DNA of 63,085 bases, counting the filler, from Chrysochromulina tobinii (taxonomy: Eukaryota): the NCBI GenBank assembly GCA_001275005.1. It is 4 parts of 4 records of this genome, joined end to end, with 100 filler letters (N's around TTAATTAATTAA, not from the genome) between each part and the next. Parts side by side here need not be neighbours in the genome. Positions count along the whole stretch, not along the records: positions 16,846 to 31,567 come from JWZX01000680.1; positions 31,668 to 50,710 come from JWZX01000682.1; positions 50,811 to 63,085 come from JWZX01000683.1; 1 more part is not named here. One strand, given 5' to 3'. How positions within the stretch are numbered: position 1 is the stretch's first letter; every line of letters starts with the position of its first letter. The notes under the pieces were generated by a model. It saw only the letters and a list, made by a program, of their open reading frames with translations, did not search any database and was not told the DNA's origin. Shown here piece after piece: positions 16,846 through 62,000 of this stretch. A program made the translations under genes and the position numbers.

Positions 16846-19304
16846 GGTGGCGGCGGCGGTGGCGGCGAGGCTCATGCACGCCGCGACGAGCGCCGCGCGC
16901 CGCGGACAGTTCCGTGAATGGCCGCCCATCGCGTTCGCACGCACGCTCTCGTACCTGTGGGGAAGTGGAGGGGGCGTCGTGGTGAGCACTTGCATGCACG
17001 AGGGGGAGACGCCCCCATCGCGTTCGCACGCACGCTCTCGTACCCGCACTCGTACTTGCACCTCCACACGAGCTCTGGGCCGGTGGGGCTGGTAGTACCG
17101 GTGGTAGTCGAGGCAGGGGGTTGGCGGGGCGGCGGGGCAGCCGACGCATGGGCCGGCGCGCCATCGTGGGCGCCCCTCGAGTCGGATGGGGCGCCGTCGT
17201 GGGCGCCGTCTGAGTCGGTCCAGGCGCCATCGTGGGCGCCCCTCGAGTCGGATGGGGCGCCGTCGTGGGCGCCGTCTGAGTCGGTCCAGGCGCCATCGTG
17301 GGCGCCCCTCGAGTCGGATGGGGCGCCGTCGTGGGCGCCGTCTGAGTCGGTCCAGGCGCAGATCGAGGCGCCGATCGAGGCACCGATGGACGCCAAGGTC
17401 GAGCGATCGAGCGCGCTGTGGTGAGCGCATGACGCGCTGTGATGAGCGGGTGGAGCGCTGTGGTGAGCGGATGGCGCTGCCCATGGTGCGCAGCGCGGCA
17501 GCATGTCCGACAGGCCGATCGCATTCACACCCGGAGCATTCACACCCGGCAGCATGTCCGACAGGCCGATCGCCGCTGCGACGGCGGACACTTCAGTGCA
17601 CTCCATCCCGATCGCCCAGGACGCGTCGTCGTGAGCGTCGCTCCTCCCCGTGTCGACGCTCACGACGACGCTGTCGTCCGCCGCGCCTGCCACTGCGCCT
17701 GCCGCGGCGCTCGCAGCGGCGCCTCCCATCACGGCCTCTCGACGCGCCGCAATGGCGGCCTGCAGCAGCTGCGCCGGCGGGATTGCATGCGATGTGCCCC
17801 GGAGCCGGCGCTCGCCTATTGCCAAATCGGGGATCCTATGAAGCCCTCGGTGCTTGTCGGGCAGGGTGCACCCGAATGTGCCGCATGCATCATCGCCGGG
17901 CCGCTTGATCTGCCTCTGCTGCTGCGGCCGAGGGCATGGCGGCGGCGGCGGCGGCGGCGGCGGCAGCAGTGAGGGCGGTGGCGGATGCAGCGGTGCCCGA
18001 GACGGCGCCGTCTCGTCCGCTGTGGCAGATGCCTTCATCTGCCACAGCGCCCGCCCTCGCCCTCGCCCTCGGTCTCGGCCTCGGCCTCGGCCACAATCTC
18101 GGCCATAATCTCGGCCTCGGCCTCGGCCATGGGGCCCCGGCTTCGGTTTCGGCTTGGGCGGTCCCACCGCAGCTGCAACGGTGCATGCGGCCGTGCATGC
18201 ATCCGGCATGTGCTCTTTCCATATTAGGACCTGCTCGCTGTGGAAGAGGCACGTGGTGTGGTCGTGTGGGAAATAAAGCTCCGTGAGCTCTCGGCGCCCC
18301 TGCCAGCTCGAACCGACGATGCGCGCGTCCCAGCTGTCCAGCGAACCTGATGAGGGCGCAATCAGTCAGACGCACTCAGGTGGCAATCAGAGGCCATCCG
18401 AGAACAGACGAGGCTTGTCCCAGCGCTCAGGTGTGAAGAGCGAACCTGGTGTGAAGAGGTGCGCGGGCACCCGTAGCCACGCGCCGATAGGCAGTCTATC
18501 CGCTGAGATGCCGCTGCTGCCGCCCTCGCAACACCCCTCGCCGCCGCCGCCGCCGCCGCCGCCGCCGCCGCCGCCGATTCCAGAGCCGTCAGGCGCTACC
18601 CTGTCGTACTCGCCCTCGCTCGCCTGCGCGGCGACCCAGGGGTGAGCTGCGAAGCCGCGGTACTCCAAATCTTCGAGCGGCGCATGGCGCCTCGCATACG
18701 TCTCGTCGTCGCTCCCGTCCTCGCTCCCGTCCGCCTCGCCGTCCGCCTCCCCGTCCGCCTCTCCGTCCGCCTCGTCGGCCTGGTCCTCCTGCTGCTCGTC
18801 GCCCTCGCCTGCGCTGGTGCCGGCGCACGTTGACAACGGTGCAGGGAGGACGCGAAACGACGCGCGTGGCATCGCATCCGGCTTGATCGCTTGATCCATC
18901 GGCGGAAGCCGAAGCGCTGCAGCCCGGCAGATGGCAGCCGGGGAGATGACCGTGCCGTTGATGGACCACGCTTCGTCTTCGTCCGGCGCGACGCCGGCAT
19001 CTTGATCGCCCTGGGCAGTGGCAGCAGCTGGTCGATGCATCGCAACCCAAGCGTCCGCAGCCTCGATGGCGTCATGCCATGCCTGCCCTTGTCCACGCGC
19101 GGACATTGGGAGCGTCGGGAGATCTGCGTACGGCCGCAGCCTGCTCAGGCTGCACAGGCCTCGCTTGCTGTCGCCGAAGAAGAGGAGGGACGCGGTGGCG
19201 GTGTCGATGAACTGCACTATCGCAGGGTACCAAAGTCGCTTGCCGAGCCGGGCGAGCACGACGTCGCCGCGGACCAAACTGACACCATGGACAGGAGACA
19301 GCAT
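16846..19304 (-). CDS. PWWP-domain chromatin protein with Cys/His motifs (multi-exon, 3' truncated at contig end)
   Basis: GDVVLARLGKRLWYPAIV...LLFFGD...LRPY..WHDAIEAA (PWWP). Intron 18347-18445 joins it to the 16872..18209 frame. Intron 16955-17043 restores CKYECGYESVRANAMGGHSRNC. More introns are possible in 17160-17580. Confidence 0.72.
17157..17358. repeat. 66-bp tandem repeat x3 inside the PWWP gene
   Basis: Unit encodes TDSDGAHDGAPSDSRGAHDGAW on the minus strand. Confidence 0.9.
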
Positions 19305-19514
19305 GATCCGAAAGCAGGACCCCCACGCCTTGTGCGCCAGTTCGCTTCCACAGACGGCGGACGAAAAGCGGGGAGGAGGTTCTGGGCGTCGCTTTGGGAG
19401 GGGATGTTGCGATTAACGGCGCGGGAATCACGGAAAGTGTGAAATTCCACCCAGATTGACCCGAGACTTGTGGTGCGCTGCTTTTCTGCGGCAATTCCCA
19501 AGTGGCTTGACAAG

Positions 19515-59000: not shown

Positions 59001-62000
59001 TGTCGACGAAGAAGAACGTGGAGAAGCTCCATGCGGCCATGCGCCCGTACTTTCTGCGCCGCATGAAGGCGGACGTTGAGAAGTCGGTGCCTCCGAAGGA
59101 GGAGATCGTGGTGCAAGTCGAGCTCACGTCGACGCAGAAGCAGTGGTGAGCCGAATCTCGGAGTGAATCTCGGAGTGAATCTTGGGGGTGTCCTCCGGAT
59201 GACCCTGATGACCCTCTGATGACCCTCCGAGGACCCTCTGATGACCCTCTGATGACCCTCTGATGACCCTCTGATGGCCCTCTGAGGACCCTCTGATGGC
59301 CCTCTGAGGACCCCTCCGAGGACCGCGTCTGAGCGCCTCCTTAATGACCTCCCTCATCAGGTACCGTGCCATCTACGAGCGGAACCTTACCTTCCTCAAG
59401 ACCCAGGCGACGCCCAACGGCCCCGCGCACGGGCCCTCGCTTATGAACATCGTCATGGAGCTGCGCAAGTGCTGCAACCACCCTTTCCTCATCGAAGGTG
59501 CTGAGGCGCAGATTCTGCGCCAGACGGGCGTCGTACCGGGCGGTTCGGTAGGCGACGTGCTCGTCTCTTCGGCAGGCAAGATGGTGCTCGTCAACAAGCT
59601 GCTGCCCAAGCTGCGCAAGCAAGGGCGCAAGGTCCTCATCTTCTCGCAGGTGAGATGGCTCCCTGATTTCACAGATGGCTCCCTGATTTCACAGCAGGTG
59701 AGATGGCTCCCTGATGACGTTTGATTTCCAGTAGATGACCTCTCTGGGAAGGGTGCTCCTCTTCTCTTCTCATAGGGGAGAGTGCCCTCTGATGACAATC
59801 ATCAGAGTGCCCTCTGATGAAAATCATCAGATTGCCCTCTGATGACAATCATCAGATTGCCCTATGATGACCCTCTGATGAGACTCTGATGAGAAGGTGC
59901 TCCTCTACTCGCAGATGACGATGGTGCTCAACATCCTCGAGGATTACCTCCGCTGGCAAGCATATCCATACGAGCGCATCGACGGTTGCGTCAAAGGCAA
60001 CGATCGGCAAGCGGCCATCGACCGCTTCTCGCGACCCGAATCGGATCGGTTTGTCTTCTTGCTGTGCACCAAAGCGGGCGGCGTGGGGATCAATCTGACC
60101 GCCGCCGATACGGTCATCATCTACGACTCCGATTGGAACCCGCAGAACGATCTGCAAGCGCAGGCTCGCTGCCACCGCATCGGACAGACGCGTCCCGTGC
60201 AGGTGAGTCCACTATCGAGCATCGATGGCCCCTGACTGCCCCTGATGGCCCTTATGACCCCTGATGGCACCTGATGGCCCCTGATGGCCCCGCCCAGGTC
60301 TACCGGCTCGTGACGCGCAACTCGTACGAGGAGATCATGTTCGAGAAGGCGTCGCTCAAGCTGGGCCTCGACCAGGCGGTCCTGTCGGGCATCGAGTCCG
60401 CTGGCGCCAAGAAGTTGAGCGGCAAGGAGATCTCAGCGCTGCTCCGACATGGCGCGTACGGCGCGCTGGCGAACGAAGAGGACGCGACGCAATTCACCGA
60501 GGCGTCGATTGACGAGATCCTGTCGAGATCGTCCAAGACGGTCGTGCACGACGCCAAGCAGGCCGAGGGAAAGTCCACTTTCTCGCACGCGCACTTTGCG
60601 GTCGCGGTGGGAGGGACGGACGTCTCCGTGGACGATCCCGAGTTCTGGACCAAGGTGGGGTTCGTCAACCAGCAGGCGGACGAGAGCCAGCAGAAGGTGA
60701 CGAATTTGGGAGAGCGCAAGCGCAAGCAGGTGCGCTGAGTGCATGCTGATTGCCTCCCTCATTCAGGTGGGGCGCGCCTCGGGGTGGACGGGCTATTCTC
60801 TGAGTGCCTCGCTGAGTGCATGCTGATTGCCTCCCTCATCAGGTGGCTCGCCTCGGGATGGACGGCGCCCTCTTTGATGACGAAGAGGACGAGGCGAGCG
60901 CCAACATCCAGGCGGACCGAATGTTCACAGCGCTGTGCCGTTTTGGTTGGCATCGTGCAGCCGAGCTGCCCTCGATCGCGCGCGTGCATCCGCACTCGTC
61001 CGAGGATGCGATCAAGCTGAGCGCCCACTACCTGTGCCAATGCGCAGCACAGGTAGCTCCGGTGGCTGACAAGTGGCCCGTGGTGCTCGCGGCGAGCGCG
61101 GTGGTTACAGCCGGCGGGAGCAAGCCTCCGAAACCGATGCAATCGTTGCGGGTGCGCGAGCGCATAGAGAAGAAGGCTCGGCATGACCTGCTGCGCTTAC
61201 ACCAGCTGCACGCCCTGCATGCGTTCGTCCTGCGCCAACCCGCGATGGCCGCCGCGTGCGCCGTCCCGGGCGACGTTGGGGACGAGGGCGGCGTGGGCGG
61301 CGTGGGTAGCAGCAGCGCCCTTGGTGGCAGCGCCCGTGAGGCGGAGGCGAGGTGCGTTCAGCTGCTGCTCGACTCCGAGAGTGCGTCGACGGCGGCGGGT
61401 TGGGGCTCTTCGCTGCTGGGCCGGGCGTGTGCGGCGCTGCAGCCGCTGCTAGACGACGTCAAGGGCGCCCCGCCTGCGCCGGCGTGGGGCGCCCAGCACG
61501 ATGCGAGGCTGCTCATTGGCGTGTACGTGCATGGCTGGGGCCACTACGACCTCCTTCGCAAGCACGATGCGCTATGGCAGTTTGCAACGGCGCTGGAGGA
61601 GGGTGCCGACGCGGACGCGGCGGCGGCGGGCGGAGCATGGGGCGGCGGCGCGTGGCCCGAGACCAAAGTGCTCGAGAGGCGCGTGAACGCGCTGTTCAAA
61701 AGGGTGCCCGGCGCGGCGCCGCCTAAAGAGCTCGGCAGCGGCGGCGGTGGCGGCGGCGAGGGTGGCGAGGGAGCGTCTTCCCGCGCGGACGCGAAGGATG
61801 GCAGCGCCGGCGGGGGGGCGAAGCGCAAACGGAAAGTGGAGAAGGTGCAGCCGGACGACGACGACGACGAGGAAGAGGAGGACGAGGACGAGGACGAGGA
61901 GGATGAGGATCGTCCCTATAAGCCCATGAAGAAGGGCTCGGTCAAGAAGGAGCCCTCGCTCAAGAAGGCCGCAGGCGCCAAGAAGGCGACTGGCGGCGCG

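What the first reader, a model, noticed from the sequence alone, without database searches (positions are those of the whole stretch)
16925..59914. Introns bounded by duplicated exon sequence, often with substitutions that create the GT donor: candidate intron-generating system
Seen (gene-sense; intron start vs downstream exon start unless stated). 16955-17043: perfect 30-nt duplicate GTACGAGAGCGTGCGTGCGAACGCGATGGG. 29312-29537: GTACGTGTGCCAT vs GGACGTGTGCCAT. 29802-29869: CTTCTTCACAG|GTACGTGGCCG vs CTTCTTCACAG|CGACGTGGCCG. 25966-26038: GTGCGTCGCCGCGTCGTTCTGGGCTC vs GTTCGTC...(25/26). 26919-27223: GTGCGTGGCTCACATATC vs GTTCGTGG...(17/18). 18347-18445: CAG|GTTCGCT at both ends. 22532-22673: CAG|GTGCGC at both ends. 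59650-59914: the intron end matches the upstream exon end at 18/21. In four cases the mismatches fall on donor positions +1 to +3, yielding GT(A/G)CG. Known: Introner elements (e.g. Micromonas, Aureococcus) make introns with short fixed target-site duplications, and some new introns are attributed to break repair. Inference: these variable 9-30-nt duplications without obvious terminal inverted repeats point to a templated duplication/repair route that yields spliceable inserts at high frequency.
Basis: partly seen in the sequence, partly recalled or inferred. Interest (0 to 1): 0.88.

Follow-up and report, generated by a model that had tools for sequence, protein, structure and literature searches.

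The report
Half-intron cassettes that breed new introns
In the alga Chrysochromulina, many introns are a 13-46-base copy of the gene's own next stretch (which supplies the splice start) joined to a shared ~45-base splice-end cassette, and at least one is present in one strain's DNA and missing in another's, so new introns are likely made by copying that cassette from existing introns during DNA repair rather than by a transposon enzyme.

Summary
All 8 cited junctions check out. 14 of 31 modelled window introns hold an exact ≥11-nt direct copy of their own flanking exon, against 7 of 930 mismatched pairs, and 0 of 31 hold an inverted copy. RNA contigs splice four of the eight. The host is Chrysochromulina tobinii or an extremely close strain. 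A metagenome scan for the shared acceptor cassette gave 120 distinct non-tandem sites. 75 start with a variable 13-46-nt copy of the downstream exon, and the exon copy begins with GT in 67. One 81-nt intron is precisely absent in a ~98%-identical strain, and its cassette matches the next intron of the same gene over 50 nt. There are no inverted repeats, and junction microhomology is in excess. GT-creating substitutions are rare (2 of 75), so that part of the title is wrong. Best reading: template-switch repair copies a 3' half-intron and re-anneals at a GT. RNA templating is not excluded. A published Introner survey scored this species as 0 families.

The parts
16955..17043 (-). Intron A2: 30-nt perfect copy of downstream exon start (17014-17043) + 59-nt insert ending in an M2 acceptor cassette (core 16955-16987); in a PWWP-like gene; splicing untested
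   Evidence: weak PWWP match
16925..16954 (-). Exon copy of the 30-nt duplication
18347..18445 (-). Intron A1: 10-nt junction repeat plus internal 11-nt copy of upstream exon; M1-type acceptor
20392..20810 (+). Intron B1: tandem copies of upstream exon end + donor + 10-mer array
   Evidence: spliced by length sum
20947..21131 (+). Intron B2: internal 17-nt copy of the exon-exon junction (8 + 9 nt)
21211..21406 (+). Intron B3: internal 49-nt copy of upstream exon end + donor (21166-21214)
21912..22151 (+). Intron B5: internal 35-nt copy of 21883-21917; M2-like cassette at 22125-22151
22532..22673 (+). Intron B7: 9-nt junction repeat; internal 47-nt copy of the exon-exon junction (about 22583-22629); 5' part shared with intron D1; M1 acceptor
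   Evidence: spliced by length sum
25174..25405 (-). Intron C6: 10-mer array, internal 31-nt copy of upstream exon end, M2-like cassette at 25174-25208
25653..25907 (-). Intron C5: 63-nt unit (exon end + donor + M1 module) repeated 2.7 times
25966..26038 (-). Intron C4: 26-nt exon copy (25/26) whose end overlaps a 52-nt exact copy of 27166-27217 in intron C1 of the same gene; the copied block includes bases that come from C1's own exon duplicate, so C1 is the template (inferred); splicing not shown
26624..26838 (-). Intron C2: start resembles downstream exon start with a 2-nt insertion; internal 39-nt copy of upstream junction; spliced in RNA
26919..27223 (-). Intron C1: 18-nt exon copy (17/18) + M1 module + 32-nt copy of upstream junction + older intron body; spliced in RNA
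29312..29537 (-). Intron D4 (DEAD-box gene): 13-nt exon copy (12/13, GT only in intron copy), 27-nt tandem array, M2 cassette 29312-29340; spliced in RNA; position read through without an intron in a 96%-identical relative's gene call
29802..29869 (-). Intron D3: 22-nt duplication straddling the junction, with CG in the exon copy and GT in the intron copy; exon copy is ancestral (FTATWP in 6 of 6 orthologues aligned); M2 cassette; spliced in RNA
58251..58426 (+). Intron F5 (CHD gene): internal exact 17-nt copy of downstream exon start 74 nt before the acceptor; M1 acceptor
59650..59914 (+). Intron F8: 3' end matches upstream exon end at 18/21; internal copy of its own donor region; splicing untested
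60730..60842 (+). Intron F10: internal diverged copy of acceptor + downstream exon start; M1 acceptor

Best explanation
These introns are a variable 13-46-nt duplicate of the downstream exon, which supplies the GT donor, joined to a ~45-nt branch-point/pyrimidine/AG cassette shared with other introns, and they are likely made by microhomology-guided template switching during DNA repair that copies the 3' half of an existing intron into a new exon site. Shown: the architecture, the family, splicing of several members, the absence of inverted repeats, variable cassette 5' ends, excess microhomology at the duplicate-to-cassette junction, near-identical cassettes in neighbouring introns, self-copies at existing acceptors, and precise presence/absence between strains. 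Inferred steps: (1) a break or stalled 3' end 13-46 nt past a donor-like GT invades another intron (neighbour, itself or distant) at 2-9 nt of microhomology; (2) it copies through the AG; (3) it re-anneals upstream at a G|GT that resembles the template's own acceptor/exon junction, duplicating the interval; (4) products that keep the frame by splicing and reach a minimum intron length (about 65 nt) survive. Because each new intron leaves its downstream exon starting with GT, it would be a good template for the next round, so the process would be self-perpetuating without a transposase. The two direct repeats would also allow precise loss or tandem stacking. The enzyme (polymerase-theta end joining or MMBIR) is not identified.
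For: Family-wide duplication: 87 of 134 usable sites vs 18 of 1591 shuffled pairs; 110 of 145 with a relaxed pattern and gapped alignment vs 20 of 2165, starting at exon base 1 in 93 of 110. Duplicate 13-46 nt (13 is the detection floor), insert 34-84 nt, total 63-91 nt in 70 of 73; duplicate and insert lengths anticorrelate (rho -0.60; -0.63 in the 32 perfect copies). Microhomology at the 5' junction: mean 2.8 nt vs 1.2 in simulated blunt joins, 14 of 30 >=3 nt, p=4e-6. Near-identical cassettes within 1.5 kb on the same strand: 5 of 41 pairs vs 189 of 10372 unlinked pairs, p=9e-4. L078 has an 81-nt intron (33/33 duplicate) that L007 lacks precisely; its last 50 nt equal the next intron 524 nt downstream. 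Window C4 = local exon copy + 52 nt of C1. L126 has a 63-nt self-copy at an existing acceptor that L008 lacks. L057 carries a cassette plus the first 13 nt of another gene's downstream exon, flanked by a ~23-nt duplicate, so the template ran past the AG. A second cassette (M1) behaves alike: 15 of 24 acceptors vs 21 of 277. Ordinary 20-90-nt tandem duplications are also common outside introns in the window. 19 of 31 window downstream exons start with GT vs 156 of 3000 random positions. Templated insertions with 2-5-bp microhomologies and patch duplications from local or ectopic donors are established repair outcomes (PMC7407515, passages).
Against: Linked cassettes are on average no more alike than unlinked ones (mean edit distance 10.1 vs 10.1, p=0.57), so local copying explains only a minority and most templates are unidentified. 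The microhomology test used only 30 of 73 sites (those with a parent-like 12-nt match). Off-register or antisense inserts, which blind DNA repair should leave in neutral DNA, are scarce (clear antisense coding context 4 of 75; exon copy not starting with GT 8 of 75), which needs strong selection or confinement to transcribed genes and fits an RNA or splice-guided route at least as well. The polymorphisms are not polarised, so L007 could be a precise loss. Linked pairs show little clear excess of shared exon-start bases (>=4 nt in 8 of 41 vs 1405 of 10372). No repair gene was searched for: no genome was held.
Confidence: 0.55

Rival explanations
1. RNA-templated insertion: unspliced pre-mRNA or a circularised intron (3' end joined to a 5' splice site) is reverse-transcribed at a staggered nick, as in target-primed retrotransposition, giving a precise 3' end, a truncated 5' end with microhomology and a long variable target duplication.
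For: Duplicate starts exactly at the base after AG in 93 of 110; sense orientation (downstream flank scores better as sense in 67 of 75); variable duplication and 5' truncation are recalled hallmarks of non-LTR insertion; the spliceosome can join an intron 3' end to a 5' splice site (PMC10996645, abstract only); tandem whole-intron copies at 8 of 128 sites.
Against: No poly(A) or tail after the AG (listing); most inserts extend past the predicted branch point (GCATGC core upstream in 63 of 73), which argues against a lariat template; L057 includes exon sequence, which excludes a plain excised intron; self-copies at existing junctions need no RNA; no reverse transcriptase was looked for.
Confidence: 0.27
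2. [quoted passage not shown]
For: Same splice-site logic as Symbiodinium and Polarella classes 4, 5, 6, 8, 10 (bioRxiv 10.1101/2020.10.14.339549 parts 1-2; PMC9860276 passages); conserved cassette core; dispersed family; a palindromic GCATGC core near the 5' end.
Against: Duplications are 13-46 nt and variable, against 3-9 bp in described families; no terminal inverted repeats; ragged 5' ends, some cut inside the core; two unrelated cassettes (M1, M2) leave the same footprint; copies carry template exon sequence.
Confidence: 0.08
3. No intron gain: old introns are secondarily overwritten by tandem duplications across their junctions in a genome with a high duplication rate.
For: True for a real subset: internal copies of exon end + donor in window introns B1, B3, B5, C2, C5, C6; several M1 cases sit directly behind an older acceptor; L126 vs L008; frequent tandem duplications outside introns.
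Against: At most 14 of 75 duplicated M2 introns had any intron-like motif in the 45 nt upstream; precise absence in L007; a 96%-identical relative's gene call reads through D4 and a 98%-identical one through D3 and D4.
Confidence: 0.07
4. Assembly artefact of short-read data.
For: Repeat-rich introns; the window is stitched from contigs with N spacers.
Against: Independent assembly identical over D3 and D4; DNA contigs span D3 and A1; 42 of 75 duplicates carry mismatches; RNA joins skip exactly the modelled lengths.
Confidence: 0.01

Closest known systems
Introner-like elements that carry the 3' splice site and recruit the 5' splice site from the TSD (Symbiodinium; Polarella glacialis classes 4, 5, 6, 8, 10)
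   Same: Dispersed family; element end is the acceptor; the 5' end of one duplicate is the donor; mRNA restored exactly; downstream exons start with donor-like bases.
   Different: Known TSDs are fixed at 3-9 bp, often with TIRs. Here the duplicate is 13-46 nt, variable, forms about a third of the intron, and there are no TIRs; only the 3' half is shared between copies, and copies can come from the neighbouring intron. The published pipeline needs similarity at both intron ends and lists C. tobinii with 0 families.
Intron gain by tandem genomic duplication (AGGT duplication)
   Same: A duplicated exon segment supplies the donor (PMC3443670 passages).
   Different: The acceptor and branch point do not come from the duplicate but from an imported cassette; D3 is the only window case where the duplicate also covers the AG.
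[quoted passage not shown]
   Same: Direct repeats flank the insert; junction microhomology; local and ectopic templates.
   Different: The inserts are not unique or organellar fillers but a recurrent splice cassette taken from other introns, at family scale.
Intron transposition (Oikopleura, Mycosphaerella; fungal sister stwintrons)
   Same: New introns resemble existing introns, including in the same gene.
   Different: Those copies are whole introns; stwintrons integrate without TSD or splice-site co-option (PMC12403724 passages). Here only the 3' half moves.
General direct repeats near splice sites (Rogers and Bendich 2025)
   Same: Reports 4-30-bp direct repeats near intron borders, mean 11.4 bp (PMC11782384 abstract only).
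   Different: A cross-taxon survey of 213 introns; the abstract describes no shared cassette, fixed register or polymorphism.

Membership tests
Introner (Gozashti 2022 definition) | Many introns at unrelated loci share sequence | tested here: met
Introner (Gozashti 2022 definition) | Similarity reaches both the 5' and 3' intron boundaries | tested here: not met
   5' 13-46 nt are locus-specific exon copies; criterion read
Introner (Gozashti 2022 definition) | Creates introns at new positions with mRNA restored | tested here: met
   Precise presence/absence L078 vs L007, unpolarised; D4 read through in a 96% relative's gene call; RNA joints
MITE-type DNA-transposon Introner | Terminal inverted repeats | tested here: not met
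   Longest inverted match between the first and last 15 nt of inserts: 2-5 nt in 73 of 73
MITE-type DNA-transposon Introner | Short fixed-length TSD (3-9 bp) | tested here: not met
   13-46 nt, continuous distribution
MITE-type DNA-transposon Introner | Autonomous transposase partner | not testable with these tools
   No genome held
Non-LTR retroposon (SINE-like) | Variable TSD, precise 3' end, truncated 5' end with microhomology | tested here: met
   feature list recalled
Non-LTR retroposon (SINE-like) | Poly(A) or repeat tail; tRNA/7SL/5S-derived head | tested here: not met
   Inserts end in the acceptor AG; no Rfam match in the window at gathering scores
Non-LTR retroposon (SINE-like) | Partner LINE reverse transcriptase/endonuclease | not testable with these tools
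   No genome held
Tandem genomic duplication | Both splice sites come from the duplicated exon segment, no foreign insert | tested here: not met
   34-84 nt of non-local cassette in 73 of 73
Alt-EJ/MMBIR templated insertion | Microhomology at template-switch junctions | tested here: met
   5' junction 2.8 vs 1.2 nt, n=30 of 73; 3' junction inconclusive
Alt-EJ/MMBIR templated insertion | Local templates enriched | tested here: inconclusive
   Near-identical pairs enriched in cis (5 of 41 vs 189 of 10372) but mean distance equal
Alt-EJ/MMBIR templated insertion | Dependence on polymerase theta or BIR factors | not testable with these tools
   Needs genetics

The most novel reading that the evidence does not exclude
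A transposase-free chain reaction of intron birth: the 3' half of any existing intron is a mobile template, the target's own duplicated exon supplies the 5' half, and every newborn intron rebuilds the AG|GT junction that seeds the next copy and the direct repeats that allow its exact loss. It runs today at population scale in Chrysochromulina and is invisible to Introner screens that need end-to-end similarity, so the same route may be undercounted across eukaryotes.
Probability: 0.5. Interest if true: 0.9.

Novelty: new variant of a known kind. Interest (0 to 1): 0.8.

Why it matters
How new spliceosomal introns arise is a long-standing question, and genome-scale gain has so far been credited to transposons. 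This system gives family-scale gain with the scars of repair rather than transposition, in a culturable alga with strain polymorphism, so rate, polarity, template choice and enzyme dependence can be tested directly. It also offers a direct cause for proto-splice-site bias (exons starting with GT) and for precise intron loss, and it shows a blind spot in current Introner screens, which scored this species as having none.

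Tried and rejected
No whole genome was held, so no genome-wide count and no search for POLQ, reverse transcriptase or transposase genes. Both cassette motifs gave 0 matches in viral contigs. No Rfam family in the window. The first read-laying over 14.7 kb was swamped by repeat joints, so only long pieces were used; summed depth there was not used as a copy number. The first coding-context test used two mis-framed training ORFs and was redone; frame agreement across the junction (56 of 75 vs 1672 of 3000 random) was not redone and is not relied on. Mismatch clustering on donor positions: 27 of 450 at positions 1-6 vs 54 of 1536 at >=7; inflated by about four mis-registered starts and by end trimming, so rejected as evidence of systematic donor creation. 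Five scan hits (L038, L056, L062, L067, L108) lack the cassette context and look like chance matches; they are counted as misses and were dropped. Replitrons were considered and rejected: direct terminal repeats, and no TSD in families other than Replitron-1 (PMC10288648 passages). L047 vs L114 suggests a second polymorphic (M1-type) intron, but L047 ends inside it and L114 could be RNA-derived, so it is not counted. P0168 reads through D3 and D4, but its N-terminus is unrelated and it may be chimeric or transcript-derived. Literature searches that found no description of this architecture; subscription papers are not in the library. In the 2022 Introner supplement (file cut when stored) I saw 32 of 214 Chrysochromulina hits and not the per-family TSD rows for marine Chrysochromulina MAGs, which do have Introners; 2 of 14 supplementary files of the 2025 paper were not searched. 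These could hold a related family.

Full report
Source and gene models. The window is eukaryotic, GC-rich (0.56-0.71 per 2 kb), and joined from contigs by N spacers. An 87-aa exon of the DEAD-box gene is 100% identical to an NCBI protein named Chrysochromulina tobinii, and another window protein clusters with a C. parva protein. I built six gene models with 31 introns by hand; all give open frames. Pfam supports the DEAD, SNF2 and TM2 labels, and weakly PWWP.

The observation. All eight cited cases are present as written. Pairing each intron with its own flanks or with those of the other 30 introns shows the effect is far above chance: in-register end score >=8 in 9 of 31 vs 15 of 930; an exact >=11-nt copy of the flanking 35 nt in 14 of 31 vs 7 of 930; inverted copies in 0 of 31. 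RNA-library contigs skip 26624-26838 (3 of 4 runs), 26919-27223 (1 of 4) and 29312-29537 (3 of 4), and continue from 29812 into 29881 in 3 of 4 runs, which is the 68-nt D3 skip. The seven-intron gene B predicts 1998 nt between the ends of an RNA contig that is 1998 nt long. Four cited introns have no splicing evidence: 16955, 18347, 59650 and 25966; the last was seen only unspliced, as loose ends, which may be DNA or pre-mRNA. An independent assembly matches 29012-30132 at 100%.

What the rest of each intron is. Parsing 18 of the 31 introns against the window shows mosaics of local exon copies, copies of other introns and 10-mer arrays. Two acceptor cassettes recur. M1 is the 20-nt end seen at 22654-22673. 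M2 is the ~45-nt end seen in 16955-17043, with a GCATGC core, a branch-point-like CTCAC (label recalled), a variable pyrimidine tract and CAG; five window introns carry it. Intron 25966-26038 is fully explained by two templates: 26 nt of its own downstream exon and 52 nt of intron 26919-27223, 1.1 kb away in the same gene, overlapping by 5 nt. The copied block contains bases that belong to the other intron's exon duplicate, which gives the direction (inference). Many other window cases are internal copies of an exon end plus donor, or of an acceptor plus exon start, that is events stacked on existing junctions.

The family. 87 of 134 have an in-register upstream copy of the downstream exon start, against 18 of 1591 shuffled pairs. 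After merging orthologous sites (128) and dropping 8 tandem whole-intron copies, 75 of 120 remain positive. A relaxed motif with gapped alignment, leaving out five likely chance loci and adding the window, gives 110 of 145 vs 20 of 2165, with the copy starting at exon base 1 in 93 of 110. The duplicate is 13-46 nt (shorter ones fall under the threshold), 33 of 75 are perfect, and the exon copy starts with GT in 67 of 75. Leaving out two long nested cases, total length is 63-91 nt in 70 of 73, and short duplicates go with long inserts (rho -0.60; -0.63 among perfect copies), which fits a minimum-length filter (inference). The downstream flank scores as sense coding in 67 of 75, and clear antisense context occurs in 4 of 75. 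There are no terminal inverted repeats. M1 acceptors, after dropping those followed by more intron repeats or with short flanks, show the same footprint in 15 of 24 vs 21 of 277; four of the 15 are window sites.

In the window, D3 has CG in the exon and GT in the intron, and six of six orthologues keep FTATWP, so the intron copy changed. D4 differs at a synonymous position, so direction is unknown. C1 and C4 have GT in both copies, and C4's first six bases equal C1's, so the +3 change may be copied rather than mutated twice. Among the 75 family members only two have GT in the intron copy alone, and one shows the reverse change at +3. The donor is normally a pre-existing exonic GT.

Gain and loss are ongoing. 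L078 has an 81-nt M2 intron with a 33/33 duplicate; L007, about 98% identical in the aligned flank, has the single uninterrupted copy. The new intron's last 50 nt equal the next intron 524 nt downstream as it stands in L007, and differ at one base from it in L078. L126 has an extra 63-nt self-copy at an acceptor that L008 has once. Three other strain pairs (L075/L130, L085/L113, L014/L043) share the M2 introns in their aligned parts. At the protein level, P0171 (143 of 149 identical, no gaps) reads through the D4 position and then into what looks like an M1 intron that the window lacks, while P0169 and P0170 read into D4; this is inferred from gene calls, without DNA. None of these cases is polarised by an outgroup.

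Mechanism. Ragged cassette 5' ends, microhomology at that junction (mean 2.8 vs 1.2 nt in simulated blunt joins; 30 of 73 sites testable), near-identical cassettes enriched within genes (5 of 41 vs 189 of 10372), self-copies, and one insert that carries 13 nt of another gene's downstream exon (L057) point to template switching. I put DNA-level repair at 0.55. Against it, linked cassettes are on average no closer than unlinked ones (p=0.57), and off-register or antisense inserts are rare. The exact AG|GT register and the sense bias keep an RNA-templated route alive (0.27); spliceosomes can join an intron 3' end to a 5' splice site (PMC10996645, abstract only). In either case a new intron leaves its downstream exon starting with GT, which would make it a template for the next event; 19 of 31 window exons downstream of an intron start with GT against 156 of 3000 random positions. 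A transposase route (0.08) fails on fixed ends, TIRs and TSD length.

Comparison with what is known. The splice logic equals that of Introners that carry the 3' site and recruit the 5' site from the TSD, but described TSDs are 3-9 bp (PMC9860276, passages; bioRxiv 10.1101/2020.10.14.339549, parts 1-2 of 4; PMC11282704, passages). Tandem duplication and break-repair routes are reviewed in PMC3443670 (passages) and PMC7407515 (passages); the passages seen do not involve a recurrent half-intron cassette. The 2022 screen required similarity at both intron ends, which these introns fail, and the 2025 survey lists C. tobinii with 0 families (PMC12130899 supplement; main text passages). Marine Chrysochromulina MAGs do have Introners, one shown with a 4-bp TSD; I did not see their per-family rows. 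The C. tobin genome paper mentions introns once, as about one per gene (PMC4580454, passages). Nine literature searches found no description of this architecture, within an open-access library. An earlier AI note on another piece of this genome (e1-2577349) reached a similar family-level reading; it is not independent support.

Verdict. Observation confirmed; interpretation partly supported. It works like an Introner but is not a member by the tested criteria. New variant of a known kind, interest 0.8; the boldest reading, a transposase-free chain reaction of intron birth that current screens cannot see, has probability 0.5 and interest 0.9.

Noticed in passing
window introns, e.g. 26231-26506, 55269-55447, 58599-58713, 25278-25390: Many introns are filled with 10-11-nt tandem arrays built on CTGA motifs that resemble branch-point sequences (label recalled); array lengths differ between strains.
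   Followed up: partly
window 22535-22587 and 30377-30419: Introns B7 and D1, in different genes on opposite strands, share a ~55-nt 5' block: a third dispersed module.
   Followed up: no
window 14089-14241, 22977-23082, 45821-45993, 17158-17359, 47542-47801: Perfect or near-perfect 35-87-nt tandem duplications outside introns, some in coding frame: a generally high duplication rate.
   Followed up: partly
P0171 (gene call, 96% identical to the window DEAD-box protein): Lacks intron D4 but runs into what looks like another intron absent from the window gene; its read-through peptide twice matches the peptide that the window's M1 module encodes at 60814-60843. Inferred from protein only.
   Followed up: partly
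P0002 and P0172 (P0002 65% identical over the aligned length): Gene calls on 12-kb and 356-kb contigs read through the window's DEAD-box intron positions (all four for P0002) and diverge near the C-terminus as if entering a different intron.
   Followed up: partly
L047 and L114: Two cassette insertions stacked at the same GT with 24- and 50-nt duplicates, in a myosin-like gene (label recalled).
   Followed up: partly
L074, L100: Duplicates that start with GA in both copies: possible GA donors or unspliced inserts.
   Followed up: no
window 7859-13795: Intronless 1964-aa ORF joining ankyrin repeats, an anoctamin domain and a choline-transporter-like domain; a same-length member exists in C. parva.
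   Followed up: no
window 37864-45858: Intronless ~2660-aa ORF with many IPT/TIG domains and three C2 domains.
   Followed up: no
window 16747-16846, 31568-31667, 50711-50810: N gaps with a central TTAATTAA linker: the window is stitched from separate contigs, so long-range order is not reliable.
   Followed up: no
window 56631-57281: CHD intron F1 (651 nt) lacks the 10-mer arrays and both cassettes: possibly an older intron class.
   Followed up: no
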